Origin: Elusimicrobiota bacterium
GTDB lineage: Bacteria; Elusimicrobiota; Elusimicrobia; UBA1565; UBA9628
Assembly: GCA_016209035.1 (NCBI GenBank)
Contig: JACQWX010000126.1
Location: 16,288 to 80,287 of the forward strand
Direction of reading: 5' to 3'
Length of the DNA stretch: 64,000 nt
Position 1 is the first letter of the stretch. Every line of letters begins with the position of its first letter. A program made the position numbers and the translations under genes. Below, one piece after another: positions 576-38,460 of this stretch. The notes below the pieces were generated by a model that made no database searches, had not been told where the DNA came from, and was given only the letters and a program-made list of their open reading frames with translations.

Positions 576-3500
576 GTGTGGACATCTGTTTCACCCGCGA
601 CCATGCTGACCGGCTTCTTGAAGTGGCCCCCTGCCGCCCACGTCTTTCCTGATGGCGCAGGGGACGCTCGGCCTCCGGCCTGGACCGCGCCCCTGCTCGC
701 CTGCCTACTGGCTGCCGCCATGCCCGCCTTCGCTGCCGGCCCCGGCATCTCCGAGCCGCAGGTCCAGCAGTGCAACGACACCTTCGTCTCCGGGTCGTCC
801 ACGCGCAAGGCCTCGCCCCAGATCAAGGTCCCCATCCAGGACCCCACGGGCTTGAGGGTCGGCATCACCAGCACCCCCTACCGGTCGGCCGCCGGCTTTG
901 GGATGTGGCGTTTCAACACATCCTATACCAAGGCCCTCGAGAACAATTGTCTCGAGCAGGGTAACAAGAGAATCCGTTCGTGGGTCTATCGCTACGACGA
1001 TCCCGAGACGGCGGAACCCGTGATCGTGGGCCGGTGCGCCTACAGCGCGAGCACCCCCACAGCCGGATGCGCAGCCGACCTCAACACCATGGTTCTCGAC
1101 GCGACCGTCACCCAGTTCCCAATCAGAACCCCCTATCCATGGGTTTCCTGTCCGAGCAGCACCCAGACCATCGCCAATCATCCCGCCACCTATTCCTTCA
1201 ACCCCACTACCAGGACCGTGGACTCGGGGTGCTTGCCCGAGGCGACTTGCGGCTCGGCCAAGAATTGCCGATACTGGACCTGGACCTACGAGGATGCTTT
1301 CTCGAACATCACGGCCGGCCGCTGCACCTACAGCGCCAGCTCTACGACTCCCGAATGCGGGGCAGGCATCGGCAGCATGAGCCTCAGCGCGACGCTGCCT
1401 TGGCCCATCATCCAGCCCGAGTTGTTCTCCATCGGAGCATGTCCGGCGAGCACGGCCACGCTGCCCAGCGGGAATCAGCCCACCACCATCCCCCTGGGCC
1501 GATTCGACACGGGCCTGTTCAGAGACAGCGTGCACGCCCCCGTCGTGGAGAGCACCCAGGCCCTCACGATCGGCATCTACTACACCATGAGCGCCTGGGT
1601 CAGGACCTCGGCCGGGGGCTTGCAGAGGATATTCTCCCACCAGGATGGCACCAAGTACTGGGGATTCGGCCTCAACGGCGGAGCCCTTCGGCGTTTCGAC
1701 TCGCGCGAGGACGCCGGGAACCAGGACAACTCGCTGGGCTCGGGCTTGAACGACAATCAGTGGCACCATGTGGCCGTCGTGCGCAGGGACGGGGTGGAAT
1801 GGGAATTCTACAAGGACGGGCAGTCTCTAGGCACAACACCGGCCAGGACCGCTGCCGCCTTCTCGACAGGCTTCTCCAACCCCGCCTACGTCGGGAGCTA
1901 CCTCGGCTCATCGGAGTTCTTCAACGGCATGATCGACGACGTGCGCCTCTGGAGATACTCCATGACCGACGATGAGATGGCTCTCGACTACAACGCGACC
2001 GTCCACCGCTTCTCGATCAACGGGGGGAGCTCCTTCTCCTACGTCTTCCGCGATCCGCCCTCCAACGCCTACAATCCCCCGGCTTCCAACGGCACCACGG
2101 TCACCGTCTACTACCAGCCCGCGGTCCAGTCCGACATCACGACCGACCACAAGTACGTCTTCATGGCCCAGGACCGAACAGGAGAGTACACCGTCCAGGC
2201 CCCGTACACCGTGTACGTGGACAAGACCCCTCCGTCGAAGCCCGTGCTCTCCGGCGCCCCGCAATCCACGAACGAGATTCTCTGGACCTGGCCGACCCCC
2301 GCTTCGTTCTGCGGCCCTCCGGAGTACGCGGCCTTCTACACCCTGATCAACCCCGGCAGCGGCGCCACCATCATGAGCGTCCTGGACCCGACCCTGCAAA
2401 TCCTTGAGAACTTCGGAGGCGAGCCCCCCAACCAGCTCCACGGCCGGGTCATCTCGGCCACGGACATCTACGGCACCAGTCCTCTCTCCGACTGCACGAC
2501 CGCCTACACCAAGGCCGCCCAGCCCACGGCCTTGGCCGCGACCTCCATCTCGACCGGGTCGTTCGTCCTGCAGTGGAACAACCAGAACAACCCGAACTAC
2601 ACCCGCTACGAGCTCCAGTACAGCACGGTGGACGGGTTCGCCAGCGGCGCCGTGACGCTGGCCGCCATCAGCGACGACTTCAACGGCAGCCAGAAGGGGG
2701 TCTCCGGACTCCAGAACGGCACGACTTATTACGCCCGCGTCCGAGCCAAGAACGGCAGGCAAACCGACTCCTACGGCACCGACCTGACCGCCTACGCCAC
2801 CGCCGATTTCACCACCCTGCCCGCGGCCCCGGTCCTGACCGGCGCCGCTCTGTCCACCGGGTCCGTCCGCTGGGATTGGACCTCCGTGACGGGCGCCTTC
2901 GGCTACAAGCTCTACAGCTCGACGAACGGCCTGATGGTCGACACGCCCGCGCTCTCCTACTCCTCTTCGACGCTCAGCACCAACACGGCCTACGGCGCCT
3001 CGGTGGAGGCCTACGACCGTTACGGCACGGCCGGGCCGCGCTCGCCCACAGTCTACATCTTCACCCTGGCCACCAGCCCGGTCAACGCCTCCATCACCGC
3101 GGTCAGCACCAACGAGATCACCGTGTCCTGGGACGCCAACGGAAACGGCCCGCAGACCTACTACGAGGTCGTCATCGCGACGAACTCCGCCTTCGCCGCC
3201 GCGCTGAGCACCCAAGGCGTCACTGGCACCAGCGCGACCATCAAGGACCTTTTCCCGAAGACGACCTACTACTTTCGGGTCAGGGCCGTCAGCGGGGGGG
3301 GGGTCGCGACCCCCTTCATCCCGGAGACGCCGCTCAAGGCCGTGACCTACCCGAACCCCTACGTGAGCGTCTCGGACCCCCTGACCTCGCCCTACGTGCT
3401 CAAGGACGGCCTGGTGGGGTTGTGGCACATGGACGAGAGCTCGAACACTTCGGCCGCGGATTCCTCGTACACGAACAACGTCGGGACGCTCACCTGCATG

Positions 3501-4829
3501 GGGCCCGGGTGCACCTCCACTCCTACCTTCACGACCGGGCCGCCGGGCCTTGGGCCGGCCTTCGCTTTCCCGGGGGTCTCCAGCTCCATGGTGATCATGG
3601 CGGACCGCGGCGAATATCACTTCAGCGGCGACCTCTCGGTCAGCGCCTGGGTGAAGCCCTCCAAGACATCGCAGGCCAACGGCACGGCCATCGCGGCCAA
3701 GGGCCTCTTCAACTCCGAGGACTTCTGCCTGGACCTCACGAGCGACACGTACCGCTTCATGTTCAAGGCTACCTGGACCGTGCTCTCGACCATGACGGCG
3801 AGGCTCGGGACCTGGGACCATGTCATGGGGGTCTACTCCGACATGGGCGGCACCCTCAAGATCTACGTGAACGGCATCCAGTCCGGCCCGGCGACGGCCG
3901 CGGCCGGCAGGGCTTGGAGCGCCGAGCCCTTGAGCGTCGGGAGCCGGAGGAACGCCTCGGGGATCTACGCCCTCTCGTTCTCGGGCGCGATCGACGAGGT
4001 GCGCGTCTTCGCCAGGGCGCTCGGGGACGCCGAGGTCCTCGCCGAGTACGAGGCGAGCAAGCCCTTCGTCTACTCCGGAGCCACGACCGCCGACCGGGTT
4101 TCCGTCGAGCTCCCGCCCAACGCATTCACCTCGGGGGCTGCCGTCCTCTTTATCTCCCCCGATCCGGTCAGCCAGCCGGTGCGGCCCGGGGTCAACTTCA
4201 TTTCGGCGGGTCTGACCGTGATGCCCACCGCGCAGCGCTTCATCGACGGCACCCTCGTCGAGATCGTCCCCGTCATCGACGGCACTCCTTTCTCCGGGAC
4301 CCTGGGATCCGCGGCCACCGTCTACATCTCCTACACGGACAAGGACAACGACGGCGTCCTTGACGGCAGCAACCCGCCGATCCACGCCTCGACCCTGAGG
4401 ACCTTCGTCTTCGAGCCCAGCGTCATGCGCTGGGACGAACTCCCCAGCTCCATCGACTACGCCAACCGGCGGGTGGCGGCCCTCACCCGCCACTTCTCGG
4501 TCTTCGCGCTCTTCGGCGCCCAGGTCTACGGCAACAGCCTGCGGGAGGTCCGGGTCTATCCGGTCCCCTGGCAGATCGGCTCCGGAGGCCGGTTCGACGC
4601 GGAGGTCCTGGTCTTCGACCGGCTGCCGACCGACGGCCTGATCCGCATCTACAACCTCGCGGCGGAGAAGATCGTGGAGTTGGGCTTCGGGCCGTCCGAC
4701 CAGGGCAGGGTCGTGTGGAACGGCAACAACTACGTCGGGCAGCCCGTCGCAAGCGGCGTCTATCTCGCGTACGTCAAGTCGTCGACGGACGGGGCGCAGC
4801 GCATCCTCAAGTTCGTGGTGGAACGGTGA
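576..4829 (+). CDS. giant secreted surface protein (1417 aa): N-terminal Cys-rich repeats, two LamG/ConA-like (Laminin_G_3) domains, at least four fibronectin type III domains, and a T9SS-type C-terminal sorting domain; alternative start at Met codon near 718
   Basis: signal-peptide-like APLLACLLAAAMPAFA-AGP; the conserved Trp/Tyr-spaced FN3 beta-sandwich pattern recurs through the central part of the protein (roughly 2200-3350); LamG motifs (NQWHHVAVVR...DDVRLWRYSMTDDEM; LSVSAWVKPS...IDEVRVFARAL); C-terminus VRVYPVPWQIG...IRIYNLAAEKIVELGF...VASGVYLAYVKSSTDGAQRILKFVV resembles the Por-secretion CTD / FlgD-Ig-like sorting domain. Confidence 0.85.
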   Translation: MWTSVSPATMLTGFLKWPPAAHVFPDGAGDARPPAWTAPLLACLLAAAMPAFAAGPGISEPQVQQCNDTFVSGSSTRKASPQIKVPIQDPTGLRVGITSTPYRSAAGFGMWRFNTSYTKALENNCLEQGNKRIRSWVYRYDDPETAEPVIVGRCAYSASTPTAGCAADLNTMVLDATVTQFPIRTPYPWVSCPSSTQTIANHPATYSFNPTTRTVDSGCLPEATCGSAKNCRYWTWTYEDAFSNITAGRCTYSASSTTPECGAGIGSMSLSATLPWPIIQPELFSIGACPASTATLPSGNQPTTIPLGRFDTGLFRDSVHAPVVESTQALTIGIYYTMSAWVRTSAGGLQRIFSHQDGTKYWGFGLNGGALRRFDSREDAGNQDNSLGSGLNDNQWHHVAVVRRDGVEWEFYKDGQSLGTTPARTAAAFSTGFSNPAYVGSYLGSSEFFNGMIDDVRLWRYSMTDDEMALDYNATVHRFSINGGSSFSYVFRDPPSNAYNPPASNGTTVTVYYQPAVQSDITTDHKYVFMAQDRTGEYTVQAPYTVYVDKTPPSKPVLSGAPQSTNEILWTWPTPASFCGPPEYAAFYTLINPGSGATIMSVLDPTLQILENFGGEPPNQLHGRVISATDIYGTSPLSDCTTAYTKAAQPTALAATSISTGSFVLQWNNQNNPNYTRYELQYSTVDGFASGAVTLAAISDDFNGSQKGVSGLQNGTTYYARVRAKNGRQTDSYGTDLTAYATADFTTLPAAPVLTGAALSTGSVRWDWTSVTGAFGYKLYSSTNGLMVDTPALSYSSSTLSTNTAYGASVEAYDRYGTAGPRSPTVYIFTLATSPVNASITAVSTNEITVSWDANGNGPQTYYEVVIATNSAFAAALSTQGVTGTSATIKDLFPKTTYYFRVRAVSGGGVATPFIPETPLKAVTYPNPYVSVSDPLTSPYVLKDGLVGLWHMDESSNTSAADSSYTNNVGTLTCMGPGCTSTPTFTTGPPGLGPAFAFPGVSSSMVIMADRGEYHFSGDLSVSAWVKPSKTSQANGTAIAAKGLFNSEDFCLDLTSDTYRFMFKATWTVLSTMTARLGTWDHVMGVYSDMGGTLKIYVNGIQSGPATAAAGRAWSAEPLSVGSRRNASGIYALSFSGAIDEVRVFARALGDAEVLAEYEASKPFVYSGATTADRVSVELPPNAFTSGAAVLFISPDPVSQPVRPGVNFISAGLTVMPTAQRFIDGTLVEIVPVIDGTPFSGTLGSAATVYISYTDKDNDGVLDGSNPPIHASTLRTFVFEPSVMRWDELPSSIDYANRRVAALTRHFSVFALFGAQVYGNSLREVRVYPVPWQIGSGGRFDAEVLVFDRLPTDGLIRIYNLAAEKIVELGFGPSDQGRVVWNGNNYVGQPVASGVYLAYVKSSTDGAQRILKFVVER
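631..682 (-). repeat. GC-rich palindromic element, family A copy 1 (inverted orientation), in-frame in the 5' end of the giant-protein gene (encodes ..HVFPDGAGDARPPAW..)
   Basis: cctgccgcccacgtctttcctgatggcgcaggggacgctcggcctccggcctg is about 90% identical to the reverse complement of 9362-9410 and is related to 16046-16095 and 16211-16266; stem CCTGC(C)GCC / GGCGCAGG. Confidence 0.7.
3294..3303 (+). repeat. G10 homopolymer tract inside the giant-protein CDS (codons for SGGGV)
   Basis: agcggggggggggtcgcg read directly from the sequence; mononucleotide runs of 9 or more are slippage-prone. Confidence 0.9.
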
Positions 4830-4832
4830 ACG

Positions 4833-4884
4833 GCAAGGAATCCATCGGTGGAAGGTCTCGCAGAGCGGCTAGGATTCCTTGCCG
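4833..4884 (+). promoter_or_regulatory. intergenic 12-bp perfect inverted repeat (GGCAAGGAATCC ..28 nt.. GGATTCCTTGCC) followed by a second short hairpin (GTCCCGCcttGCGGGAC); partial terminator or attenuator between the cargo and barrel genes
   Basis: seen directly 4 nt after the giant-protein stop codon; no U-tract. Confidence 0.4.
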
Positions 4885-4927
4885 GCGTCCCGCCTTGCGG
4901 GACTGTCCCTCCCTTGAATTGATTGGA

Positions 4928-5923
4928 ATGGGACGTGTCTGCGTTCCCGTTTTCTTAGGTCTCCTTCTTGCCGTTTCGCTGTGGGCTCCGCCCACAGCGA
5001 GGGCATCTTTCAAGCGCCGGGACACCGGCTCCAACGCCGCTCAGTTCCTCAAGCTCGGGGCGGACGCCCGCGCGGCTGGCATGGGCCAGGCCGTCCGGTC
5101 CCTGGCCGAGGACGCGACCTCCGTCTACTGGAACCCGGCGGGACTCTCGGGCTTGAGGCTGCGGCACGCGACCTTCTCCCACGGAGCCCTCTACCAGGGC
5201 ATCTTCTACGATTTCCTCGCCTATGCCCAGCCCATCGAGTCGATCCTCGGGCGCAAGGAGCCGCGGCAGATCCGCGAGAGCCAGCTCGGAAGCCTGGGCG
5301 TCGCCTTGTTCTACATGAACGCGGGCTCCCTGCAGGAGACCGACAACACCGGGACCGCGACCGGCGGCAGCTTCATGCCCCAGGAGTTCGCCGGCGCGGT
5401 GGCCTGGGGCGGACGGCTCTCCTCGAACCTGGACGCCGGCATCGGCGTCAAGTTCATCCACTCGAAGCTCTACGAAAGCGCCCAGACCGCGGCGGGCGAC
5501 GTCGGAGCCAGGCTGCGCTTGAGGATCGCGCGCATGCCTCTGACCCTGTCGGTCGGGGCACACAACTTCGGGGGCAGCCTGAGGTACGGGCGGCAAAGCC
5601 AGGACCTCCCCTTCTTCGTGAGCGCCGGGGCCGGCCTGCGCGTAACCAAGGGCCTCATCCTGACCGGCGACCTCGTCGCGCCGCGGGACAACCGGCTCTA
5701 CGCCGCGGCGGGACTCGAGTTCCGGCAGGCCCTCACCTCCAAGGCGGGCTTCTCCCTGCGGGCCGGCTACAACGGGATGAACTACGACAGCGACCTCATG
5801 GGCCTCTCCGCGCTGGGGCTGGGAGCCGGGGTGCGCTTCCATCGGGTGGACGTGGACTACGCCTGGACGCCGTTCGGCATACTCACCACCGGCCACCGTT
5901 TCTCCCTCGCCTACCGATTCTGA
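4928..5923 (+). CDS. PorV/PorQ-family (FadL-like) outer-membrane beta-barrel protein (331 aa)
   Basis: signal peptide MGRVCVPVFLGLLLAVSLWAPPTARA; N-terminal family motif NAAQFLKLGADARAAGMGQAVRSLAEDATSVYWNPAGLSG (G.ARa.gMGgA..a.adDasA.ywNPAGL shared by PorV/PorQ/UPF0164/FadL-like barrels); C-terminal aromatic residue (..SLAYRF); immediately downstream of a CTD-bearing cargo. Confidence 0.75.
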   Translation: MGRVCVPVFLGLLLAVSLWAPPTARASFKRRDTGSNAAQFLKLGADARAAGMGQAVRSLAEDATSVYWNPAGLSGLRLRHATFSHGALYQGIFYDFLAYAQPIESILGRKEPRQIRESQLGSLGVALFYMNAGSLQETDNTGTATGGSFMPQEFAGAVAWGGRLSSNLDAGIGVKFIHSKLYESAQTAAGDVGARLRLRIARMPLTLSVGAHNFGGSLRYGRQSQDLPFFVSAGAGLRVTKGLILTGDLVAPRDNRLYAAAGLEFRQALTSKAGFSLRAGYNGMNYDSDLMGLSALGLGAGVRFHRVDVDYAWTPFGILTTGHRFSLAYRF

Positions 5924-15643: not shown

Positions 15644-15682
15644 GGCGTCAGGCATTGCGCAACTTGCGCAATGCCTGACGCC
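15644..15682 (+). terminator. 39-bp perfect palindrome (19-bp arms GGCGTCAGGCATTGCGCAA c TTGCGCAATGCCTGACGCC) immediately after the kdsC-like stop; terminator or protein-binding site
   Basis: seen directly; no U-tract. Confidence 0.5.
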
Positions 15683-15727
15683 ACGCTATTGCGGATTCCT
15701 TGCCATGTGTACTAGAATGCCCCTGCC

Positions 15728-16626: not shown

Positions 16627-19600
16627 ATGGCAGCCAGACTCCGGCCCCGCTCCCTCATCACGACCCTAGGATTGGCGGCCCCGCTTTTGGCCGCCTTCGC
16701 CCACCAAGCCTTCGCTCAGACATTATTCACCCCCCGGCGCTCCCACACCCAGACCCTCATGGCCGACGGCAACATCCTGGCCGTGGGCGGCATCAGCGAC
16801 GAGACCGCGCCCACCTACCTCGGTTCAGGCGGCACCGGGGTCCAGAGGCTCAACGAGGGCAGGGGCCTCATCGAGAACCTCACGGCCATGTCCATCAACC
16901 GGGCGTCCCACACCGCGACCCTGCTGCCGGACGGCAAGGTCCTGGTGGTGGGCGGCATCAACGCGGGCGGGACCATCGCCACTTTCAACGTCTTCAACCC
17001 CAGGACCAACACCTGGGACACCGCCAACGAGGACGACGGCTCCCACGACCTCCCCAGCGGCGGACGCTACAACCACACGGCCACGGTGCTCAAGGACGGC
17101 AGGGTGCTGGTCTGCGGAGGGCAAAACGGCGGCGCGGCGCTCGGCTCCTGCGACGTGTTCACGCCCGACTACGACGAATCCTCGGCCGACAACGAGTCGG
17201 ACTGGGCGGCGGGGCCGTCGCTGCTGAGCGGCCGCGCCAACCACACCGCGACCATGCTGTTCAACGGCGAGGTGTTCGTCACCGGCGGCTGGAACCCCGC
17301 CGTGACCCCGAACTACACTCCCCTCTCGGAGCGGTTCCGGCCGGACTGCAGCGCTCCGACCGGCTGCTGGACCCCGGCCCGTCCCTTGAACGAAGGACGG
17401 GCGTACCACTCCGCCACGGCTATGTCCGACGGGAAAGTGATCATCGCCGGAGGCAACAACGCCAAGAACTTCGAGGCCAACAGGGGCTTCCTCCAGACCG
17501 TCGAGGTCTACGACCCGGTGGCCGACGAGATGCTCATGGCGGCCAACATGCCGGCGAGGAAGACCGGCTTCGCCGCCATCCTCCATCCGAGGGGGTACCT
17601 CTTGATCCAAGGCGGCCTGGGGAACGTCACGACCACCTACGTGACCCCCACCCTGACGCTGATGCCGGGCAGCTTCATCACCGGCCCCGCGTGGAACGGG
17701 GTGGGCGGGGCCGGTTCCAACATGGACCTCGGGGTCACGTACTCCAGCTCGGCCATCTCCGGCGGCGCCCTCAGCGCCCCCTTCAGGATCAAGCTCGACG
17801 CCGAGGTCACCGGCGTCATCCGGCAAGGCGAGATCTATTTCTCCACGCCTTCCATCATGTTCAACGGAGGCTATGCGTACCTGAATGAAGGAATAGGGGA
17901 CGAGGGCCTGGGAACGGCTTCCGGCCTGAGGGCGAGCCTCAACGGCATGGAGGTCTACTGTGACCCGACCGAGGACACCTGCGGCTGGGTCTCGACCGAT
18001 CAGCTCTTCCTCGCGGGCATCGCCGGCAGGTACGGGTTCCTAAGGCTCTCCGCCCAGATCGGCGGCTCGGCGTCCGACCCCAACGCCTGCGTCGACTTCA
18101 GCGATACCGAGGACGACAACGACGGAAGGATCATCCTGGGCGACGTCTACCCGATCCGGTCCAACAGCGCCGAGAACCGCTGCACCGCCCCCGTCGTGGA
18201 CGAGAACAGCTGGCGGGGCAACATCATCGTCCAGGGCCTGCCCGGCAGCACCGTCGGCGGGTCGATATCCAGCGCCACCCTCATGGTCCTCGAGGCCCAG
18301 ATGACGGGCGAAGAGGCCGGCGCCGAACCGGCCATCACGTACACCATCAACATCTCCTCCATGTTCACCAACGTCCCGGCCGGAATACCCATCATCCAGG
18401 ACACGAGCAGCGATCTCCCGAGCGGCCAGTTCACGTTCGCCGCGAACTTCAGGAACATGGCGGGCACCGTAGAGACCTCGTCGGACCCCTACCCCAACCC
18501 CGGCATCCTCGGCCCCATCGATGTCCCGCTCACGCTCTCCATCTCCAGGAGCGTGCTCCGGTACATTGCGGACCGGGTGGACCTCAACGGGGATCTCCTC
18601 ACCGTGCAGCTTTCCACCGTCGTCATCCGCACCATGGTGTTCGGCGACGTGGAGATGTACTCCCCCAAGGACAACGAGTGGTCCAGGTGGCCCCTCGATA
18701 CGGGCCTGGCGGATTCGCGGTTCTTCCACAGCGCCTCCCTCACCCCGGGCGGAGCCGCCCGGTTCTGGGGCGGCGAGACCTGCGACTACGTGGGCTCCGC
18801 GACCTGCGCCTCCGACGAGGTCAACCCCCTCGGACGCTTGAGCCTCAACATCTACCAGGAGGATTGGACCGAGGGACCGGGGGCGATGACCCACGGCCGG
18901 GCCAACCACACCGCCACGCCTTTGCCCAACGGCAAGGTCCTCATCGCCGGCGGCACCAACGGACCAAGCGTGCTCAAATCCGCGGAGATCTACAACGTCC
19001 AGACCAGGTACTTCTCCCAGACCGGCGAGATGAACTACGCCCGCGACCTGCATTCGGCGTCGCTCCTGCCCAACGGCAAGGTCCTGGCGGCCGGAGGCTT
19101 CTCCACGGACTCCGTGTCCACGGGCGCCACCAACACCGCGGAGGTCTACTATCCCGACGAGGGGGTGTGGCGCGAGACCGGCTCCATGAACTGGCGCCGC
19201 GATTCCCACACGGCCGTGACCCTGCTGGACGGCAACATCCTCGTGTTCGGAGGCTACGACCGCGGCGCCTACCTCGACAGCGCGGAGATATACTATTCCA
19301 CGATCGGCGCCTGGCGCGCCATCCCGAGCCCGACCAATCAGGGCCTCGGGGCCTGCCCCGGCGGGGCTCATGCCAGGGCCAAGCATACCGCCACCCTGCT
19401 CAAGGACGGCCGCATCCTGTTCGCGGGCGGCATCAACGGCGCCAGCGGCGTCTTGAGCTCGGCGCTGCTGCTCAATCTCTTCAACCAGGACCTGGCCCTC
19501 GGCTGGAGCTGCGCCGCGCGAATTCAGAGCCTTCCCACCGATAACCCTCCCTCGGTGGTCTTCCCGGTCCACTCGCACTCGGCCATCCTCCTGCAGTCCG

Positions 19601-22600
19601 GCGAGGTCCTCCTGAGCTTCGGCAACGACGGCACGGGGCAGGCGGAGCTGCCGCCGCTCTCCTTGGTCTACGACCCCGCCGCGAACGCCTGGAGGTACGG
19701 CGTCGGCCTCCAGCAGAAGGGCGTCACCTTCAACCACACCGCGACCCTGCTGCCCAACGGGCGGGTCCTCATCGTCGGCGGCGCCCGCGGCTTCAATCAG
19801 ACGCAACGGAGCAACTTCCTTTATGACATGATCTCGGCCACCTACACGGCTACCGGGCGCCTGGTGAGGGCCAGGGCCTGGCACACAACCACGCTCACGG
19901 CCGGGCAGGAGATCGTGGCCGTCGGAGGCTTCAACCAGACCGACGGCTACCTCAAGTCCGCGGAGTACTATCCCATCGGCATCGCGGGGCCTTTCGACGA
20001 GGAAATGCCCGGCTACCCTCCCTCGATCCGCATCGCCACGATCACGGTCGTGAGCCCCTCGATCTCGCTGCCCGGGAACAACCTCATCGTGCGCGACAGG
20101 AACCTCACCCGCCTCACCGAGGCCTCCTCCGGCAAGACCGGCGGCTCCTCCCATTTCCACCCCAGGATGATCCTGCAGGCCGTGGACGCCAGCGGCGGGA
20201 CCGCGACCCAGGGCAACTCCGGCTTCCTCATCGACCTGACCACCAGGATATACCGCTCCATCGCGGGCTCCTGCCCGGCCTCGAACGACTACTGCAACCG
20301 CTGGAACAAGGGCGCGGGCGGCGACCCGAACATCTTCGGCTACTACGGCCAGGAGAAGGTGGACGCGAGCACCACCTCCCTCATCACCGCGCGCCTCCCG
20401 GAAGCCTCGACGGCCATCCCCAACGGCTGGTACCACCTGCGCGAGGCGGCCAACGCCGTCTACTCCGACAGCGTGCTGATCCGCATCGGCCCGCCGCTCC
20501 CGCCCGCCCCGACGCCCGCCACCGGCACGGTGATGGGCTCCACCTCCGTCTACTGGACCTGGCCGGACCTCGGGGGCTGGAACGTGGGCTACAACGTCTA
20601 CTACGCCACCTCCCTGGTCTTCATCACCACCCGAGCCGTGGCGCTCGCCGGCCAGAGCGCCTTCTTCATCCAGACGGGCTTGACGCCGAACGTCACCGCA
20701 GCCATCATGGTCCAGGGGTTCTCCCAGACGGGCGACAGCTCCGGGACCGTGTCGGCCAACGCCTACACCCTGGCCGTGCCTCCGGCCAACATCCGCTTCA
20801 CCACGATCCAGGCGAACTCCGTGAACATGGAGTGGCAGTCCAACGGGAACAGCGACGGGACGGTCTACGAGGCGTCCATCGCCTTGGACCCGGCCTTCAC
20901 GATCGGGCTTCGGATCCCGACGAACGATTACGCGCCCTTCACCAGCACCTACACCACGATCACCGGCCTGATCCCCCTGACCACCTACTACGTGCGCATG
21001 CGCGCGCAGAACAACGAGAAGCCGACCGGGATATGGACGGACTTCACCTACACCACCTTCACGACCAGGTGGAGCTGGATCCCCTTGTCGGGGCAGGAAT
21101 GTTCCGCGAACACCGGGGACGTCTGCATCACCTGGCAGTGGAGGTCGACCGCGACCGTCGTGAGCTACAACATCTACAACGCCACCGTCCCCTCCGCCTC
21201 CCCCGGCTACAAGATCAACCCCGCCCCCCTCACCGACGGCGACGGGGACGGGAACGTCACCTTCTCGGACACGCCGCTTGACCCCAACACCCCGCGGGTC
21301 GTCTTCGTGACGGGGATCAGGGCGTCCAGCGAGGAATGGCCGCTCACCCAGCCGACGACCGTCTACACATGGGCGGCCCAGCCCGGCCAGCAGTATGACC
21401 AAGGCTCCGGCCAGTACATGCCCTATCTGGTCATCAGGGACTCGCAATCTGTCAACGTCCAATACAACACCAACCGCAACCCCACGGGATCGCCTCCCCT
21501 GGCCACCTACTACAGGCTCTACTATGCCACGGGAGCCGTCGACGGCATCTGGTCCTGGCTGTCCACCGGCGACTACCAGACCTCCGGCCCCGACAGCTTC
21601 AAGGAGGAGCGGATCGAGGACCTGCTCCCGGGCGAGAACTATTTCGTCGAGATCGAGCCCGTCAACAATCAAGGGACCCCGAGCAGCAGGACCGCCCTGG
21701 GCAGCATCTACACCATGGCCAATCAGCCGACCTCATTGAGGCTGCTGTCCGTGACCCCGAACAGCATCACGATCGACTGGGATCCGAACGGAAACACCTC
21801 GTCGACCACCTACGAGGTGAGCTACACGACCGGCGAGCCGCCCGGGGTCGGGCTGACCGTCTACGTGTCCCGGAGCTTCGCGGAGTGGAACAGCTCGCTC
21901 TCCGCCACGGTCTCGGGCCTCGACACGGGCAGGTGGTACTATTTCCGGGTGCGATCCCAGAACTTCCAAGGATTGGTGAACACCGCCTACTCCACCGTAG
22001 TGAGCACCATCACGCCCACGGGCTCCGCAGGCGCCTCCTCGGGCCAACTCGGAGGGACGCTCCAGGCGGCGGTGGACTCGAGCTTCTCCGGGACGATCGG
22101 CAGCCCCGCCCAGCGCACCGTGAGCCTCTGGGCCCCGGCCGGGGCCTTCACCACGAACGTGGAGGTGGTCATCTCCACCCTCAACGTCTCGGGCGCGGGC
22201 TCCCTGTGCGGCAGCGGGCTCAACGTCGGCATCTCCATCGCCCCGGTCCCGTACGTCCAGCCCGCCAAGCCGCTGATGCTGACCTTCTCCTATTCCACGA
22301 GCCCCGTCAACGAGCTCGGCGCCGCCGACCCGGACAAGGTCGTGCTCATGCGCTACGACCCGGCGAAGAACAAATGCGTGCCCATGCCGACCGTCGTCGA
22401 CACCGTGAGCCTCAGGATCACGGCCCTGCTCAACCACTTCTCGTTCTTCCAGCTCGCGGTGGTCACGCCTCCCACGAACCCGCACGCGGCCAAGGCCTTC
22501 CCGAACCCGTTCTACAAGTCGCGGGACGGCTACGTGACCTTCAGCGAGATGCCGCCTTACTCGCGCATCCGGATCTACACGATGCAGGGAGACCTCATCC

Positions 22601-22743
22601 TCGACCGCCTCGCCACCGGGGCGGGGATACTCACCTGGGGCGGCCTCAACATGTGGGGCCGCATGGTCGCCAGCGGCATGTACCTCGCCGTCATCCAGCA
22701 CGGCGACGACAAGAAGATCATCAAGATGGTGGTCCTCAGATGA
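16627..22743 (+). CDS. giant secreted surface protein (2038 aa): two Kelch/galactose-oxidase-like beta-propellers, multiple fibronectin type III domains, Ig-like region, T9SS-type C-terminal sorting domain
   Basis: signal peptide ...LAAPLLAAFAHQAFAQ; Kelch blades HTATLLPDGKVLVVGG, HTATVLKDGRVLVCGG, HTATPLPNGKVLIAGG and HTATLLPNGRVLIVGG are a subset of roughly a dozen; FN3 pattern (Trp/Tyr-spaced beta-sandwich repeats across the C-terminal third); C-terminus FPNPFYKSRDGYVTFSEMPPYSRIRIYTMQGDLILDRL...GRMVASGMYLAVIQHGDDKKIIKMVVLR. Confidence 0.85.
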   Translation: MAARLRPRSLITTLGLAAPLLAAFAHQAFAQTLFTPRRSHTQTLMADGNILAVGGISDETAPTYLGSGGTGVQRLNEGRGLIENLTAMSINRASHTATLLPDGKVLVVGGINAGGTIATFNVFNPRTNTWDTANEDDGSHDLPSGGRYNHTATVLKDGRVLVCGGQNGGAALGSCDVFTPDYDESSADNESDWAAGPSLLSGRANHTATMLFNGEVFVTGGWNPAVTPNYTPLSERFRPDCSAPTGCWTPARPLNEGRAYHSATAMSDGKVIIAGGNNAKNFEANRGFLQTVEVYDPVADEMLMAANMPARKTGFAAILHPRGYLLIQGGLGNVTTTYVTPTLTLMPGSFITGPAWNGVGGAGSNMDLGVTYSSSAISGGALSAPFRIKLDAEVTGVIRQGEIYFSTPSIMFNGGYAYLNEGIGDEGLGTASGLRASLNGMEVYCDPTEDTCGWVSTDQLFLAGIAGRYGFLRLSAQIGGSASDPNACVDFSDTEDDNDGRIILGDVYPIRSNSAENRCTAPVVDENSWRGNIIVQGLPGSTVGGSISSATLMVLEAQMTGEEAGAEPAITYTINISSMFTNVPAGIPIIQDTSSDLPSGQFTFAANFRNMAGTVETSSDPYPNPGILGPIDVPLTLSISRSVLRYIADRVDLNGDLLTVQLSTVVIRTMVFGDVEMYSPKDNEWSRWPLDTGLADSRFFHSASLTPGGAARFWGGETCDYVGSATCASDEVNPLGRLSLNIYQEDWTEGPGAMTHGRANHTATPLPNGKVLIAGGTNGPSVLKSAEIYNVQTRYFSQTGEMNYARDLHSASLLPNGKVLAAGGFSTDSVSTGATNTAEVYYPDEGVWRETGSMNWRRDSHTAVTLLDGNILVFGGYDRGAYLDSAEIYYSTIGAWRAIPSPTNQGLGACPGGAHARAKHTATLLKDGRILFAGGINGASGVLSSALLLNLFNQDLALGWSCAARIQSLPTDNPPSVVFPVHSHSAILLQSGEVLLSFGNDGTGQAELPPLSLVYDPAANAWRYGVGLQQKGVTFNHTATLLPNGRVLIVGGARGFNQTQRSNFLYDMISATYTATGRLVRARAWHTTTLTAGQEIVAVGGFNQTDGYLKSAEYYPIGIAGPFDEEMPGYPPSIRIATITVVSPSISLPGNNLIVRDRNLTRLTEASSGKTGGSSHFHPRMILQAVDASGGTATQGNSGFLIDLTTRIYRSIAGSCPASNDYCNRWNKGAGGDPNIFGYYGQEKVDASTTSLITARLPEASTAIPNGWYHLREAANAVYSDSVLIRIGPPLPPAPTPATGTVMGSTSVYWTWPDLGGWNVGYNVYYATSLVFITTRAVALAGQSAFFIQTGLTPNVTAAIMVQGFSQTGDSSGTVSANAYTLAVPPANIRFTTIQANSVNMEWQSNGNSDGTVYEASIALDPAFTIGLRIPTNDYAPFTSTYTTITGLIPLTTYYVRMRAQNNEKPTGIWTDFTYTTFTTRWSWIPLSGQECSANTGDVCITWQWRSTATVVSYNIYNATVPSASPGYKINPAPLTDGDGDGNVTFSDTPLDPNTPRVVFVTGIRASSEEWPLTQPTTVYTWAAQPGQQYDQGSGQYMPYLVIRDSQSVNVQYNTNRNPTGSPPLATYYRLYYATGAVDGIWSWLSTGDYQTSGPDSFKEERIEDLLPGENYFVEIEPVNNQGTPSSRTALGSIYTMANQPTSLRLLSVTPNSITIDWDPNGNTSSTTYEVSYTTGEPPGVGLTVYVSRSFAEWNSSLSATVSGLDTGRWYYFRVRSQNFQGLVNTAYSTVVSTITPTGSAGASSGQLGGTLQAAVDSSFSGTIGSPAQRTVSLWAPAGAFTTNVEVVISTLNVSGAGSLCGSGLNVGISIAPVPYVQPAKPLMLTFSYSTSPVNELGAADPDKVVLMRYDPAKNKCVPMPTVVDTVSLRITALLNHFSFFQLAVVTPPTNPHAAKAFPNPFYKSRDGYVTFSEMPPYSRIRIYTMQGDLILDRLATGAGILTWGGLNMWGRMVASGMYLAVIQHGDDKKIIKMVVLR

Positions 22744-22853
22744 CCGAGCACCTCGGAGCCCCGCAGGGGCTCCTCGTCCCGCGCAACGGGTCTGCGAGGA
22801 AATGGCCTGCCCTTCCAATTATTGGAGGGGCAGGGCTCGGCAGAGCGGAGACC

Positions 22854-23840
22854 ATGAAGGCCGGGATTTTGCTCCTATGCGTCCTCCTGGCGCGTCTGCC
22901 CGCCGCCGCCGCGGACTTCTCGCGAGAGACCGTCGGCACCGGAGGCTCGGAGTTCCTGCTCTTCGACCTGGGCCCGCGGGCCATAGCCATGGGCGGGGCC
23001 TACAGCGGCTTGAGCGACGACGCCTATTCCCTCTACTGGAACCCCGCCGGCCTGGCCCGGATCCCGAGGCTATCCGCCTCGTACCAGAGCAGCCTGCACG
23101 TGGCCGACATGACCTACCACGCCGGGGTCTTCGGGTACCGCATGAAGGAATCCGTCGTCCTGGGCGCCGGCTGGCGCTATCTGAACATGGGGGAGATCGA
23201 GAACACCGACCTCGCGGGCGACACGGTCGGCAAGTTCACTCCGAGGCACTACGTGGTCGAGGCGGGCTGGGGCCAGTCCATCTACGACCTCTCGGACAAC
23301 GACATGGAGCTCAACGTGGGCGCCGTGGTGCGGTGGATCCACTCGGTCATGTTCGTCCAGGCGGACGGCTTCGGGGGGGACATCGGGATCCAGGCGCGCT
23401 TCTATGCCGGCCCGTTCCTCTACGATTTCGGCGGGTCCCTGCAGAACATCGGGGTCGGCCAGAGCTACGTGGACGTCAGGGACTCGCTCCCATTCCGCGC
23501 GCGCCTCGGGGGGACCATCTATCCCGCCCGGGGCCTCGCCCTGTGCCTCGAAGCCGTGACGCCCGTCAACAACTATCCTTTCGCGGCCCTCGGAGTCGAG
23601 TATGCCCGTCACTTCGACAAGAACCTCAGCGCCGCCGCGCGCGCCGGCTTCAACAGCCGCACGCTCGCCAGTCTCGGCCCCATGTCGGCCATGAACCTCG
23701 GGATGGGCGTCAAGTTCTCCGACATCTCCGTGGATTACTCCTTCAACTACATGGGCGTGCTGGGCTCGCAGGGCACGCACCGCCTGGCCTTCAGCTACAA
23801 CCTGCCCTCGAAATCCTCGAGGAGATACCGCGAACGATGA
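22854..23840 (+). CDS. PorV/PorQ-family (FadL-like) outer-membrane beta-barrel protein (328 aa), paralogue of 4928-5923
   Basis: signal peptide MKAGILLLCVLLARLPAAAA; motif GTGGSEFLLFDLGPRAIAMGGAYSGLSDDAYSLYWNPAGLAR; ends ...LAFSYNL; 110 nt downstream of a CTD-bearing giant protein. Confidence 0.75.
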   Translation: MKAGILLLCVLLARLPAAAADFSRETVGTGGSEFLLFDLGPRAIAMGGAYSGLSDDAYSLYWNPAGLARIPRLSASYQSSLHVADMTYHAGVFGYRMKESVVLGAGWRYLNMGEIENTDLAGDTVGKFTPRHYVVEAGWGQSIYDLSDNDMELNVGAVVRWIHSVMFVQADGFGGDIGIQARFYAGPFLYDFGGSLQNIGVGQSYVDVRDSLPFRARLGGTIYPARGLALCLEAVTPVNNYPFAALGVEYARHFDKNLSAAARAGFNSRTLASLGPMSAMNLGMGVKFSDISVDYSFNYMGVLGSQGTHRLAFSYNLPSKSSRRYRER

Positions 23841-25384
23841 GCCCCGACGACCCCTCCGCGCCCCCGCCGCCCCCTCCGGGGGCTCCCATCCCGCCGGCGC
23901 CGCCTGCGCCCGAGCTCGTCCGGCCCGCGCCCACCCCTGCGCAGCAGGTCCCGCGCACCCCGATGATGGATTTCATGGAGCGAAGGCTCGCCGCCCTCGA
24001 GGCCGATCTCGCCCGGGAACGCGAGCGCGCCTCCTCGGCGGAGAGCGTGCTCAAGGCCCAGGCCTCCATGCGCTCCGAGGTCGAGGCCCAGCTCAAAGCC
24101 CTGACGGACCAGCTCCGGCGGGAGAAGTCCGACCGGGACCATGAGGAGTCCTCCTCCCAGGCCAAGGGCCGGATCTCTGCGCTCGAGGAGCGGCTCGACT
24201 CGCTGCACCGCACCTGGGCCGACCTGCTCAAGGAGACGCTCCTGGGCAAGGAGGTCGTGGCCAAGGTTTGGCCGGCCGAGGTCGTGGGCGAGATGAAGGA
24301 GTGGCGCCAAGCCCTCTCAGCCCTCCCCAGGCTCGTCGACGCGGTCGCGGACCTCGAATCGCGCCAGCGGGGCCAGGACCTCCAGGTCAAGGATGAGCTG
24401 CGCGCCCTCGTCGGGGACCTTTCCGCCGCGTTGCGGGAACGCTTCGCCGACGCGGAACATAAGCGCGAGATCGACCTGGCCAAGGCTGACGACCGCCTCG
24501 GGGCCGTGGCCCGTGAACGGCTCGCCCTGCGGGAAGCCTTCGACGAGGCCGGCCACGCCCTGCGCTCCGACCTCCTCAAGGAGCGCCTCGCCCAGGAAGC
24601 GGCCTTCAACGAGGCCCTCTCCGGCATCGCGGCCCGCATCGACGACCTCGGCCGCCGCCACGCCCAATCCGACCGGGAGACCTCGGAGCTCAAGGAGGTC
24701 CTCGGCCAGGCCCTCTCCAGGGCCGAGCCCAAGGCCAAGGACGCGGTGATGGCGGAACTCGAGCACGAGAACGCCGACCTGCGCGGGATGCTCTCCGAGC
24801 GCATCGAGGCCTTGAGGCGCTACACCGAAGAGAGGAAGCGCATCGAGGCCAGCATGGGAGAGAGCCTCCTGGCCTTGAACCGCGAGCTCTCGCAAGAGAA
24901 GGCGAGAGGCCTCGAAGCCGGCCGGCGGATGATGGAGAAGGACCTGGAGATCACTTCGCTCAAGGACAGGCTCGACATGGCCTCCAAGACCGTCGAGGAG
25001 AGGGAGACGCGCTTCGCGTGTCTCGCGGTTGAGCGCGACGAGATCGCCCGCGCGATGGCGGCCGAGGCCGGGAGGCTCCGGGACGCCATTGAAGCCCGCA
25101 GGGTCTCCGACGAGACCTGGGCCAAGAAGGTCGCCGAGATGGAGAAGAAGCTCGACGAGGCCGCCGATATCTCCCAGCGGGAGGCGGCGTCGCGCCGGGA
25201 CCTTGCCAGCCAGGCGGCCGTCCTCTCCTCCCACGCCGCCAAAGCCCTCCAGGAGAGGGACGCCGCCGTCCAGGGCAGCGCCTCCTGGCAGGAAGAGCGC
25301 GCCCGGCTCCTGGAAGCCCTCAGGAAGAAGGACGACCTCATCTCCATGCTCTCCGCGTCGTTCCAGAACATCTTGAAGAAGTAG
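23837..25384 (+). CDS. proline-rich N-terminus plus long coiled-coil protein (515 aa), translationally coupled (ATGA overlap) to the PorV/PorQ-like gene
   Basis: MSPDDPSAPPPPPPGAPIPPAPPAPELV... then about 450 aa of heptad-like E/R/A/L-rich sequence; no TM; start overlaps the upstream stop. Confidence 0.6.
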   Translation: MSPDDPSAPPPPPPGAPIPPAPPAPELVRPAPTPAQQVPRTPMMDFMERRLAALEADLARERERASSAESVLKAQASMRSEVEAQLKALTDQLRREKSDRDHEESSSQAKGRISALEERLDSLHRTWADLLKETLLGKEVVAKVWPAEVVGEMKEWRQALSALPRLVDAVADLESRQRGQDLQVKDELRALVGDLSAALRERFADAEHKREIDLAKADDRLGAVARERLALREAFDEAGHALRSDLLKERLAQEAAFNEALSGIAARIDDLGRRHAQSDRETSELKEVLGQALSRAEPKAKDAVMAELEHENADLRGMLSERIEALRRYTEERKRIEASMGESLLALNRELSQEKARGLEAGRRMMEKDLEITSLKDRLDMASKTVEERETRFACLAVERDEIARAMAAEAGRLRDAIEARRVSDETWAKKVAEMEKKLDEAADISQREAASRRDLASQAAVLSSHAAKALQERDAAVQGSASWQEERARLLEALRKKDDLISMLSASFQNILKK

Positions 25385-37848: not shown

Positions 37849-38460
37849 GTGATTAAGATCGTCGTCATCGTCTTGGTGTTCGCCGTCTGCGGGTTCTTCG
37901 CCGCGCGTTCGTTCTTCAGGAAGCCTCCTCCGCCGCCGCCGGTGGTGGAACCGTCTCCTCCCCCGCCGCTCATCACGCCCGAGGAAGAGGCCAAGATCGT
38001 CAAGGCCTCCCGCGACATCGACGCCGACGTGCGCTGGGAGGCGGCGCAGCTCCTCACCAGCCTCAAGTCGCCGTCCGCCAACGCGGTCCTTTTCGAGAGG
38101 CTGCACAAGGACGAGAGCCTCGACGTCCGCCTCAAGATCACCGGCCTCATCAAGACCAAGACGGGGGCCGACGTCGCCGAGAACCTGGTCTTAGCCCTCA
38201 AGGAGCCGGCCAATCCGCCGGAACTGCGCATCGCCGTCCTCCAAGCCTTGGCCGCGGTCGGCGAGATGGGCGTCATCCCCCAGATCACGGATTGCCTCAA
38301 GGACGCCAACGAGCTGGTCCGCAAAGAGGCGCTCAGGACCATCAACAGCCTGAACATCCTGCGCGAGGCCGAGATCAAGAAGGCCGAGATGGAGCGCCTG
38401 CGCCTGGAGGCCGAGAAGGGGACGACGGAAGCGGAGAAGGAAGTCAGGAAGATGAGATAG
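37849..38460 (+). CDS. membrane-anchored HEAT-repeat (PBS-lyase-like) protein, GTG start
   Basis: N-terminal TM IVVIVLVFAVCGFFAA, poly-Pro linker, HEAT motifs DADVRWEAAQLL, DVRLKITGLI, ELRIAVLQALAAVGE, ELVRKEALRTI. Confidence 0.65.
   Translation: MIKIVVIVLVFAVCGFFAARSFFRKPPPPPPVVEPSPPPPLITPEEEAKIVKASRDIDADVRWEAAQLLTSLKSPSANAVLFERLHKDESLDVRLKITGLIKTKTGADVAENLVLALKEPANPPELRIAVLQALAAVGEMGVIPQITDCLKDANELVRKEALRTINSLNILREAEIKKAEMERLRLEAEKGTTEAEKEVRKMR

What the first reader, a model, noticed from the sequence alone, without database searches (positions are those of the whole stretch)
576..5923. Cassette 1: giant CTD-bearing surface protein immediately followed by its own PorV/PorQ/FadL-like outer-membrane barrel
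A 1417-aa LamG/FN3 protein ends in a T9SS-type C-terminal sorting domain. The next gene, 98 nt downstream, encodes a roughly 330-aa barrel with the PorV/PorQ N-terminal signature (..GADARAAGMGQA..ATSVYWNPAGL). In Bacteroidetes PorV is a shared shuttle and dedicated partners are PorP/SprF-type (the SprB-SprF pairing). Here the dedicated partner is a PorV/PorQ-type barrel, and no other T9SS core gene (porK/L/M/N, sprA, porU) occurs in 64 kb. Tandem hairpins sit between the two genes, which is an attenuator-like spacing. Together with cassette 2 this looks like a modular cargo-plus-cognate-barrel export unit not described for PorV/PorQ proteins.
Basis: partly seen in the sequence, partly recalled or inferred. 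Interest (0 to 1): 0.8.

Follow-up and report, generated by a model that had tools for sequence, protein, structure and literature searches.

The report
Surface protein paired with PorV-like barrel
In an Elusimicrobiota genome, two giant surface proteins with a type-IX-secretion-style tail are each followed by their own PorV/PorQ-like outer-membrane barrel; this two-gene module recurs in several bacterial phyla, and I found no paper describing it.

Summary
Cargo 1 (576..4829, 1417 aa, LamG/FN3) is followed 98 nt later by a 331-aa barrel (4928..5923). The barrel passes NCBIfam's PorV/PorQ family model (140 bits, cutoff 90) but fails the PorV, PorQ, PorV2, PorP/SprF and FadL models. Its AlphaFold model matches PorV best. 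The cargo tail falls below the TIGR04183 cutoff on its own. By family profile and by fold, however, it matches the retained C-terminal domains (CTDs) of PorZ and PorU, and it keeps the conserved lysine.

The pairing is not chance. In barrel-centred sampling, 77 of 91 related barrels had a CTD gene directly upstream. In cargo-centred sampling, 28 of 33 CTD genes had a barrel directly downstream. Tails and barrels also co-diverge.

The window is Elusimicrobiota, outside the Fibrobacteres-Chlorobi-Bacteroidetes (FCB) group where type IX secretion (T9SS) is known. No T9SS core gene was found in the 64 kb. The same module also occurs in FCB-labelled genomes.

My best reading is a dedicated CTD-docking anchor or carrier, like PorZ-PorQ. 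The route across the outer membrane is unknown. The spacer hairpins are real but absent from orthologues. I rate this a new variant of a known kind.

The parts
576..4829 (+). Cargo 1: a 1417-aa secreted LamG/FN3 surface protein. The likely start is ATG 603, followed by a signal peptide ending ...AMPAFA.
   Evidence: ORF and translation. Pfam finds Laminin_G_3 twice and fn3. Orthologues at 58% and 38-41% identity sit next to orthologous barrels in Elusimicrobia MAGs.
4527..4826 (+). C-terminal 100 aa of cargo 1: a type-A-like T9SS CTD (beta-sandwich), with the conserved Lys six residues from the end.
   Evidence: PorZ-CTD part of NF052228 at E 6.5e-7; TIGR04183 only 14.3 bits. Family profile A2 against PDB: PorZ 5m11 residues 669-758 at E 5e-17, PorU CTD at 1.6e-8. 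AlphaFold model against PDB: PorZ, then PorU. Lys/Arg conserved in 76/76 tails.
4831..4903 (+). Two hairpins in the 98-nt spacer. One is a 13-bp perfect stem (4831-4843/4872-4884). The other is a 7-bp GC stem (about 4887-4903). Neither is followed by a T-run.
   Evidence: RNA fold of 4820-4935 gives -51.5 kcal/mol, z -2.98, 0/200 shuffles as stable. Inverted repeat found. Not conserved: orthologous pairs overlap or abut.
4928..5923 (+). Barrel 1: a 331-aa PorV/PorQ-family outer-membrane beta-barrel. It has a signal peptide, an N-terminal plug motif (GADARAAGMG...WNPAGL) and a terminal ...YRF.
   Evidence: NF033709 at 140.2 bits (cutoff 90); PorQ 82, PorV 62, PorV2 61, all below cutoff. Profile against PDB: PorV 6h3i_F at E 7e-28. 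AF2 pLDDT 90; Foldseek top hits are PorV 8gl6_F and 6h3i_F at TM 0.70 and 0.67, then FadL/TodX at 0.50-0.57.
16627..22743 (+). Cargo 2: a 2038-aa Kelch-propeller/FN3 surface protein with a signal peptide and a CTD (22441..22740).
   Evidence: Pfam Kelch and fn3. The tail alone scores 27.0 bits on TIGR04183 (cutoff 23), and the PorZ CTD part gives 1e-12. Its last ~140 aa are homologous to cargo 1 (30% identity, E 5e-14). Orthologues are paired with barrels in 10 loci.
22806..22834 (+). Hairpin (14-bp stem) in the 110-nt spacer of cassette 2.
   Evidence: Fold of 22735-22860 gives -65.8 kcal/mol, z -4.18. Inverted repeat found. The orthologue L024 has only about 6 nt between its cargo stop and the start of its barrel match.
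22854..23840 (+). Barrel 2: a 328-aa PorV/PorQ-family barrel, paralogue of barrel 1. It carries an 11-aa basic extension after the beta-signal.
   Evidence: NF033709 at 122.7 bits. 29% identity to barrel 1, E 2e-34.
23837..25384 (+). A 515-aa Pro-rich/coiled-coil protein. Its start overlaps the barrel 2 stop by 4 nt. It may be a third member of cassette 2.
   Evidence: No family hit. It is conserved immediately after the barrel in 8 cassette-2 orthologous loci at 36-62% identity.

Best explanation
Each cassette encodes a Sec-exported giant adhesin- or lectin-like surface protein. Its C-terminal beta-sandwich is a type-A T9SS-like CTD of the PorZ/PorU kind. I propose that this CTD is recognised by the extracellular loops of a dedicated PorV/PorQ-family barrel, a FadL-fold barrel with an N-terminal plug, encoded by the next gene. 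The barrel would then act as a private docking site, either as a non-covalent cell-surface anchor or as a private carrier. This mirrors how PorQ holds PorZ and PorV holds PorU in Porphyromonas.

Shown here:
- the family assignments of barrel and tail;
- the fold of the barrel;
- the near one-to-one adjacency of the two genes across phyla, in both sampling directions;
- their co-divergence;
- adjacency kept in L004 even though the cargo gene there lies on the opposite strand.

Inferred:
- physical CTD-barrel binding;
- retention of the CTD;
- surface exposure of the cargo.

Not known: how the cargo crosses the outer membrane in this Elusimicrobiota organism. It could use a T9SS translocon encoded elsewhere in the genome, or another route.
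For: Barrel identity:
- NF033709 at 140 and 123 bits against a cutoff of 90.
- PDB profile hit to PorV at E 7e-28.
- AF2 model with pLDDT 90, closest to PorV at TM 0.70.

Tail identity:
- Of 76 cargo tails, 63 hit TIGR04183 and 71 hit the CTD part of the PorZ model.
- The tail profile's best PDB hits are the PorZ CTD (5e-17) and the PorU CTD (1.6e-8).
- The cargo 1 tail model hits PorZ and PorU first.
- Lys/Arg at position -6 is conserved in 76/76 tails. This matches the near-invariant Lys of type A CTDs (PMC10994853).

Linkage:
- 77 of 91 barrels have a CTD gene ending within 600 nt upstream of the barrel match on the same strand, usually within 0-150 nt. Only 23 CTD ORFs lie elsewhere in the same 84 sequences (the window plus 83 loci).
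- By taxonomic label: Elusimicrobiota 40/44, FCB 17/19.
- Reciprocal cargo-centred sample from metagenomes: 28 of 33 CTD ORFs with downstream sequence are followed by a barrel.
- Tail and barrel identities correlate at r = 0.74, with 0/2000 permutations as high.
- In L004 the cargo 1 orthologue lies on the opposite strand, convergent with the barrel 1 orthologue, and is still adjacent to it.
- In orthologues the two genes overlap by 4 nt or abut.

Precedent: PorZ and PorU are held on the surface by OM barrels, and the PorZ CTD is not cleaved (PMC8545088).
Against: - No binding, localisation or processing data exist, and no complex prediction could be run.
- Cargo 1's tail alone is below every curated cutoff: TIGR04183 14.3/23 and FlgD_ig 17.6/27.
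- Correlated divergence of adjacent genes is expected from shared inheritance alone. Among distant pairs r is only 0.27.
- The barrel keeps the FadL-type plug and NPA motif, so a transport role is not excluded.
- In a few Elusimicrobiota loci the order differs: barrel, then a TPR gene, then the CTD gene. About 10% of barrels have no CTD neighbour.
Confidence: 0.6

Rival explanations
1. These are ordinary T9SS cargo with private PorV paralogues. The genome would encode a full T9SS (SprA, PorK/L/M/N, PorU) elsewhere. The cassette barrel would replace the general PorV at the SprA lateral gate as a substrate-specific carrier, and the CTD might then be cleaved.
For: The same module occurs in FCB-labelled genomes (Cloacimonadota, Rhodothermales, Zixibacteria, KSB1, Ignavibacteria, Caldithrix). 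T9SS is reported for that superphylum (PMC11205867). The tails are type-A-like with the conserved Lys. PGAP already names an Elusimicrobiota relative 'T9SS type A sorting domain-containing protein'.
Against: No T9SS core model hits in 64 kb of window, nor in seven large neighbours of Elusimicrobiota cassettes. TXSScan found no T9SS, and no other secretion system, in the two complete Elusimicrobia genomes it screened (PMC4793230 supplementary file 2). No paper in the library links Elusimicrobia with T9SS. The tails resemble the retained CTDs of PorZ and PorU more than cleaved substrate CTDs.
Confidence: 0.3
2. This is a FadL-type uptake channel with an accessory surface binding protein. The barrel would import a hydrophobic or amphipathic nutrient. 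The LamG or Kelch protein would capture the substrate. The C-terminal Ig-like domain would be only a generic tether.
For: The barrel has the FadL fold with an N-terminal hatch and NPA motif. FadL and TodX are the next structural hits after PorV. Pfam tags several homologues as PF03687, the Treponema UPF0164 family. A Brachyspira PorV/PorQ-family protein has been read as FadL-like (bioRxiv 10.1101/2025.01.03.631275).
Against: Pfam Toluene_X scores only 13.8 bits against a cutoff of 29.7, whereas PorV_fam scores 140. PorV is the top hit by both sequence and structure. The partner domain is specifically a T9SS-type CTD in about 85-90% of pairs, while the passenger domains vary widely from roughly 100 to 3200 aa (some truncated at contig ends). 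That pattern fits recognition of the tail, not of a common substrate.
Confidence: 0.07
3. The adjacency is chance or purely syntenic, and the Ig-like tail has no sorting role.
For: Cargo 1's tail is sub-threshold for every curated CTD model. Close relatives share long synteny around both cassettes.
Against: The pairing holds across very divergent passengers, across phyla, and in both barrel-centred and cargo-centred samples. It also holds where the cargo gene lies on the opposite strand.
Confidence: 0.03

Closest known systems
PorZ-PorQ and PorU-PorV pairs of the Porphyromonas gingivalis T9SS attachment complex
   Same: In both, a surface protein with an uncleaved type-A-like CTD is held on the cell by a PorV/PorQ-family OM barrel (PMC8545088). 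The cargo tails here match the PorZ and PorU CTDs best, by profile and by fold. The barrels score slightly higher on the PorQ model than on the PorV model.
   Different: The barrels fail the PorQ and PorV equivalog cutoffs. The passengers are LamG/FN3 or Kelch giants, not the PorZ propellers or the PorU peptidase. There are several cassettes per genome. The host is Elusimicrobiota, with no T9SS core gene in view. From my own knowledge, porQ and porZ are not adjacent in P. gingivalis, whereas here the partner genes are adjacent, often overlapping.
SprB-SprF and type B CTD / PorP-like pairs of Bacteroidota
   Same: The genetic logic is the same: a large surface protein gene sits next to the gene for its own OM barrel, which anchors it through the CTD. 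Type B CTD proteins bind PorP/SprF (PMC11205867). The adjacency of those gene pairs is from my own knowledge of Gorasia et al. 2022, which I did not read here.
   Different: The barrel here is PorV/PorQ family, with no PF11751 hit at E<0.1. The CTD is type-A-like: TIGR04183 hits 63/76 tails, whereas type B TIGR04131 hits 3/76.
PorV, the general type A substrate carrier of the T9SS translocon
   Same: Same family, and the closest solved structure. PorV binds CTDs through its extracellular loops (PMC10994853).
   Different: PorV is one shared shuttle acting at SprA. Here there is one barrel per cargo. The barrels are about 330 aa against 402 aa, score 62 bits against an equivalog cutoff of 250, and no SprA is known in this organism.
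FadL/TodX hydrophobic-compound channels and spirochaete PorV/PorQ-like OMPs (Treponema UPF0164, Brachyspira)
   Same: A 14-strand-type barrel with an N-terminal hatch and NPA motif. They show that this superfamily occurs outside FCB.
   Different: Sequence models separate them: Toluene_X gives 13.8 bits. I found no CTD-bearing partner gene described for those proteins.

Membership tests
PorV/PorQ family (NCBIfam NF033709) | Whole-protein HMM score at or above the curated cutoff (90 bits) | tested here: met
   Barrel 1 scores 140.2 bits and barrel 2 scores 122.7 bits.
PorV/PorQ family (NCBIfam NF033709) | FadL-fold OM beta-barrel with an N-terminal plug, closest to PorV | tested here: met
   AF2 pLDDT 90.1. 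Foldseek top hits are PorV 8gl6_F and 6h3i_F at TM 0.70 and 0.67, above FadL/TodX at 0.50-0.57.
T9SS PorV (NF033710 equivalog) | Score at or above 250 bits | tested here: not met
   61.7 and 62.6 bits.
T9SS PorQ (NF033711 equivalog) | Score at or above 220 bits | tested here: not met
   82.2 and 68.1 bits.
PorV2 (NF052325 equivalog) | Score at or above 325 bits | tested here: not met
   61.1 and 48.5 bits.
PorP/SprF (Pfam PF11751) | Pfam match | tested here: not met
   No hit at E<=0.1 for barrel 1. Barrel 2 was not validly scanned against Pfam, because the query was out of frame. One distant homologue (P0102) carries PF11751.
FadL/TodX (Pfam PF03349 Toluene_X) | Score at or above 29.7 bits | tested here: not met
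   13.8 bits, over the N-terminal motif only.
T9SS type A CTD (TIGR04183 / PF18962) | Domain HMM score at or above 23 bits at the extreme C-terminus | tested here: inconclusive
   Cargo 1 scores 14.3 bits, which is not met. Cargo 2 scores 27.0 bits on the tail alone but 21.5 in the full protein. Across the family, 63/76 tails hit at E<=0.01.
T9SS type A CTD (TIGR04183 / PF18962) | Beta-sandwich fold like solved CTDs, plus the near-invariant Lys near the C-terminus | tested here: met
   Profile against PDB: PorZ CTD 5e-17, PorU CTD 1.6e-8, substrate CTD 8glk_D 1e-4. Model against PDB: PorZ, PorU, and NucA CTD at TMt 0.73. K/R at -6 in 76/76 tails.
Type IX secretion system (whole system) | Core genes sprA/sov, porK/L/M/N (gldK-N), porU and porT present in the genome | not testable with these tools
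   None found among the window's ORFs scanned with Pfam or NCBIfam, nor in 7 large neighbours in Elusimicrobiota loci. The rest of the genome is not available. TXSScan found none in two complete Elusimicrobia genomes.
Type IX secretion system (whole system) | CTD-dependent export, and PorU cleavage or retention of the CTD | not testable with these tools
   Needs proteomics or genetics.

The most novel reading that the evidence does not exclude
Elusimicrobiota lack the SprA/PorKLMN machinery. If so, these cassettes are a self-contained, T9SS-independent 'CTD plus private PorV-like barrel' surface-display module. The CTD-PorV recognition at the heart of type IX secretion would then exist as a free-standing two-gene unit outside the FCB superphylum. 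It could be an ancestral form that the T9SS later built on, or a minimal derivative of it. The cargo would cross the outer membrane by a route not yet described.
Probability: 0.3. Interest if true: 0.8.

Novelty: new variant of a known kind. Interest (0 to 1): 0.6.

Why it matters
Type IX secretion is taught as an FCB/Bacteroidota system in which one shared barrel, PorV, shuttles type A cargo. Dedicated barrel partners are known only for type B cargo (PorP/SprF) and for two machinery proteins (PorZ-PorQ and PorU-PorV).

This locus belongs to a large, multi-phylum subfamily of PorV/PorQ-like barrels. Each is encoded next to its own type-A-like CTD protein, and the subfamily is abundant in Elusimicrobiota, where no T9SS has been reported.

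That gives three things:
1. A simple rule for predicting surface proteins and their anchors in uncultured phyla.
2. Natural cognate and non-cognate CTD-barrel pairs for working out how CTDs are recognised.
3. A concrete test of whether CTD-barrel docking can work without the SprA translocon, which bears on how the T9SS evolved.

Tried and rejected
- An exact look-up of barrel 1 in the assembly index found nothing.
- Two calls used out-of-frame coordinates. One search's comparison was meaningless and was redone correctly. One search's Pfam scan of barrel 2 was never redone, so barrel 2 has no valid Pfam result.
- A protein search with the cargo's last 200 aa returned only 11 hits, limited by the word index.
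- The afdb50 fold library was unavailable.
- The CTD alignment A2 was too divergent to seed a metagenome scan. The closer alignment A5 worked.
- I could not obtain SprA, PorU or GldK-N query sequences. A genome-wide T9SS census of Elusimicrobiota was therefore impossible. I scanned only window ORFs and seven large neighbours and used TXSScan's published table.
- Attenuator reading rejected: the hairpins are stable, but they lack T-runs and are absent where orthologous genes overlap.
- REP-like repeat idea: one arm (GGCAAGGAATCC) recurs at 15693, but 1 of 100 shuffles does as well. I did not pursue it.
- Classical FadL, PorP/SprF, and canonical PorV, PorQ and PorV2 memberships rejected on curated cutoffs.
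Full report
**What is in the sequence.**
The window has about 67% G+C and nearly all genes lie on the + strand. ORF 576..4829 encodes a 1417-aa protein. It has a signal-peptide-like N-terminus (likely start ATG 603), two Laminin_G_3 domains and FN3 repeats. Its stop is followed by 98 nt. At ATG 4928 a 331-aa ORF begins, with a signal peptide, the motif GADARAAGMGQA...YWNPAGL, and a terminal ...AYRF typical of outer-membrane barrels.

A second cassette has the same plan. It consists of a 2038-aa Kelch/FN3 protein (16627..22743), a 110-nt spacer, and a 328-aa barrel (22854..23840). The two barrels are paralogues (29% identity, E 2e-34). The last ~140 aa of the two cargos are homologous (30% identity, E 5e-14).

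**The barrel.**
- NCBIfam places both barrels in NF033709 'PorV/PorQ family' (140.2 and 122.7 bits, cutoff 90).
- Both fall far below the equivalog cutoffs for PorQ (82 and 68 against 220), PorV (62 and 63 against 250) and PorV2 (61 and 49 against 325).
- For barrel 1, Pfam gives only sub-threshold PorV (22.6 against 27) and Toluene_X/FadL (13.8 against 29.7), and no PorP/SprF hit. The Pfam scan of barrel 2 used out-of-frame coordinates and is void.
- A profile of 20 homologues finds PorV (6h3i_F) in the PDB at E 7e-28 and nothing else significant.
- An AlphaFold model built from 66 sequences has pLDDT 90.1. It is a beta-barrel preceded by a helical N-terminal segment.
- Foldseek ranks PorV first (8gl6_F TM 0.70; 6h3i_F 0.67), ahead of FadL and TodX (0.50-0.57).
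The HMMs and the fold, not that motif, assign the protein to the PorV branch.

**The cargo tail.**
Taken alone, cargo 1's last 100 aa are below every curated cutoff: TIGR04183 14.3 against 23, FlgD_ig 17.6 against 27, CHU_C 13.6. They do match the CTD portion of the PorZ model at E 6.5e-7. Cargo 2's tail alone passes TIGR04183 (27.0 bits), and the PorZ part gives 1e-12.

At family level the picture is clear:
- Of 76 tails collected from cargo genes next to related barrels, 71 hit the PorZ CTD part, 63 hit TIGR04183, 37 hit the PorU CTD part, and only 3 hit the type B model.
- The tail profile's best PDB hits are PorZ 5m11 residues 669-758 (E 5e-17) and the PorU CTD (1.6e-8). FlgD (~1e-5) and F. 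johnsoniae substrate CTDs (1e-4) follow.
- An AlphaFold model of cargo 1's last 200 aa (pLDDT ~85 over the CTD) hits PorZ and PorU first and matches the NucA CTD at TMt 0.73.
- A Lys/Arg six residues from the end is present in 76/76 tails. This matches the near-invariant Lys of type A CTDs (PMC10994853).

The 'only FlgD-Ig' refutation therefore fails. The tails resemble most the two CTDs that are retained rather than cleaved.

**Organism.**
The barrel's homologues are almost all from Elusimicrobia MAGs and are named 'PorV/PorQ family protein'. The closest relative, GCA_016218545.1, has a barrel at 78% identity. It shares the gene order CCA-adding enzyme, LamG giant, barrel, epimerase, GTP cyclohydrolase I, TPR-SpoIID. 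It also has the cassette 2 orthologue 17 kb away on the same contig. The window is therefore Elusimicrobiota, which lies outside the FCB superphylum.

**Is the pairing real?**
*Barrel-centred test.* I fetched 80 loci encoding relatives of the barrel from species-representative genomes. With a barrel HMM and a CTD HMM built in the sandbox:
- 91 barrels were found. 77 have a CTD-ending ORF on the same strand that ends within 600 nt upstream of the barrel match, usually within 0-150 nt.
- Only 23 CTD ORFs lie elsewhere in those sequences, and several of these sit in the same clusters.
- By label: Elusimicrobiota 39 upstream plus 1 convergent of 44; FCB 17 of 19; unlabelled 16 of 19; other candidate phyla 4 of 8.

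*Cargo-centred test.* Loci were chosen from metagenomes by a motif in the domain before the CTD, without reference to the barrel. Of 33 CTD ORFs with downstream sequence available, 28 are followed directly by a barrel.

*Other evidence.*
- Tail-tail and barrel-barrel identities correlate at r = 0.74 (0/2000 permutations). Among distant pairs r drops to 0.27.
- In L004 the cargo 1 orthologue is on the opposite strand, convergent with the barrel 1 orthologue, and still adjacent.
- In orthologues the genes overlap by 4 nt or abut.
- A minority arrangement also exists: two-component system, barrel, TPR gene, CTD protein.

The barrels in FCB-labelled loci are likewise only 'PorV_fam' (194-234 bits) and fall below the PorV, PorQ and PorV2 cutoffs. 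This is therefore a distinct, cargo-linked subfamily.

**T9SS context.**
No T9SS core model matched any scanned ORF of the window. The window instead holds sugar metabolism genes, a restriction-modification (R-M) island, a BatA-D/MoxR operon and housekeeping genes. None matched seven large genes neighbouring Elusimicrobiota cassettes either. Reviews place the T9SS in FCB/Bacteroidota. TXSScan found T9SS only in Bacteroidetes, and its table lists zero systems for Elusimicrobium minutum and Endomicrobium Rs-D17. Searches for Elusimicrobia with T9SS or PorV, and for PorV-like or PorQ-like adjacency, found no relevant paper. I could not screen the rest of this genome.

**Hairpins.**
The spacers fold stably (z = -3.0 and -4.2). 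They carry no T-runs. They are missing in orthologues, whose genes overlap. They may tune the cargo-to-barrel expression ratio in this genome, but they are not part of the conserved module.

**Interpretation.**
The best-supported mechanism is a dedicated docking pair. The CTD binds the loops of its own PorV-like barrel, which anchors or carries the giant surface protein. This is how PorQ holds PorZ and PorV holds PorU (PMC8545088). The genetic layout parallels SprB-SprF and type B CTD/PorP pairs. Binding, CTD retention and the outer-membrane crossing route are inferred or unknown.

The main rival is that a full T9SS lies elsewhere in the genome and these barrels are private PorV paralogues. 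A FadL-like uptake role and chance adjacency are much less likely.

**Verdict.**
This is a new variant of a known kind. It is of moderate-to-high interest because of the multi-phylum one-to-one pairing and its abundance in a phylum with no reported T9SS.

Noticed in passing
window 23837-25384: A 515-aa protein with a Pro-rich N-terminus followed by an all-coiled-coil region. Its start overlaps the barrel 2 stop by 4 nt. It is conserved immediately after the barrel in 8 cassette-2 orthologous loci (36-62% identity) and has no family hit. It may be a third cassette gene.
   Followed up: partly
window 25910-28164: A low-GC island (53% against about 67%) carrying an Eco57I/N6-type DNA methyltransferase-like gene (26455-28164) and a 182-aa ORF. 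It is probably a horizontally acquired restriction-modification element.
   Followed up: no
window 38292-46756: An operon of MoxR AAA ATPase, DUF58, BatA-like and VWA proteins, TPR BatC, BatD and a TPR/SH3 protein. This is an aerotolerance-type Bat cluster.
   Followed up: no
window 23808-23840: Barrel 2 has an 11-aa basic extension (PSKSSRRYRER) after the usual terminal beta-signal (...AFSYNL). Barrel 1 ends at ...AYRF.
   Followed up: no
L004 4469-16241: A compound locus: CTD cargo, then a barrel, then a second barrel (the barrel 1 orthologue), then a convergent 1735-aa cargo 1 orthologue on the minus strand.
   Followed up: partly
L084/L085/L086 (Elusimicrobiota-like contigs): An alternative arrangement: histidine kinase and response regulators, then a PorV-like barrel (377-383 aa), a TPR protein, a small CTD protein (334-340 aa), and in L084/L085 a large gene next (1008 aa, collagen-like in L084).
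   Followed up: partly
proteins P0071-P0079, P0084, P0099-P0109: PorV-family barrels of about 480-510 aa in Endomicrobiales and Elusimicrobiales, and forms fused to OmpA-like or TPR domains (Margulisbacteria and others). Several homologues carry the Pfam tag PF03687 (Treponema UPF0164).
   Followed up: no
window 15644-15704: A long perfect palindrome (GGCGTCAGGCATTGCGCAA.TTGCGCAATGCCTGACGCC) in the intergenic region before gene 15728. It is followed by GGATTCCTTGCC, the same 12-mer that forms the stem of the cassette 1 spacer hairpin.
   Followed up: partly
L051, L057, L071, L072, L076, L082, L083 (Cloacimonadota-labelled): A conserved cluster: a ~1030-aa CTD protein, then a barrel, then one or two further ~720-750-aa CTD proteins.
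   Followed up: no
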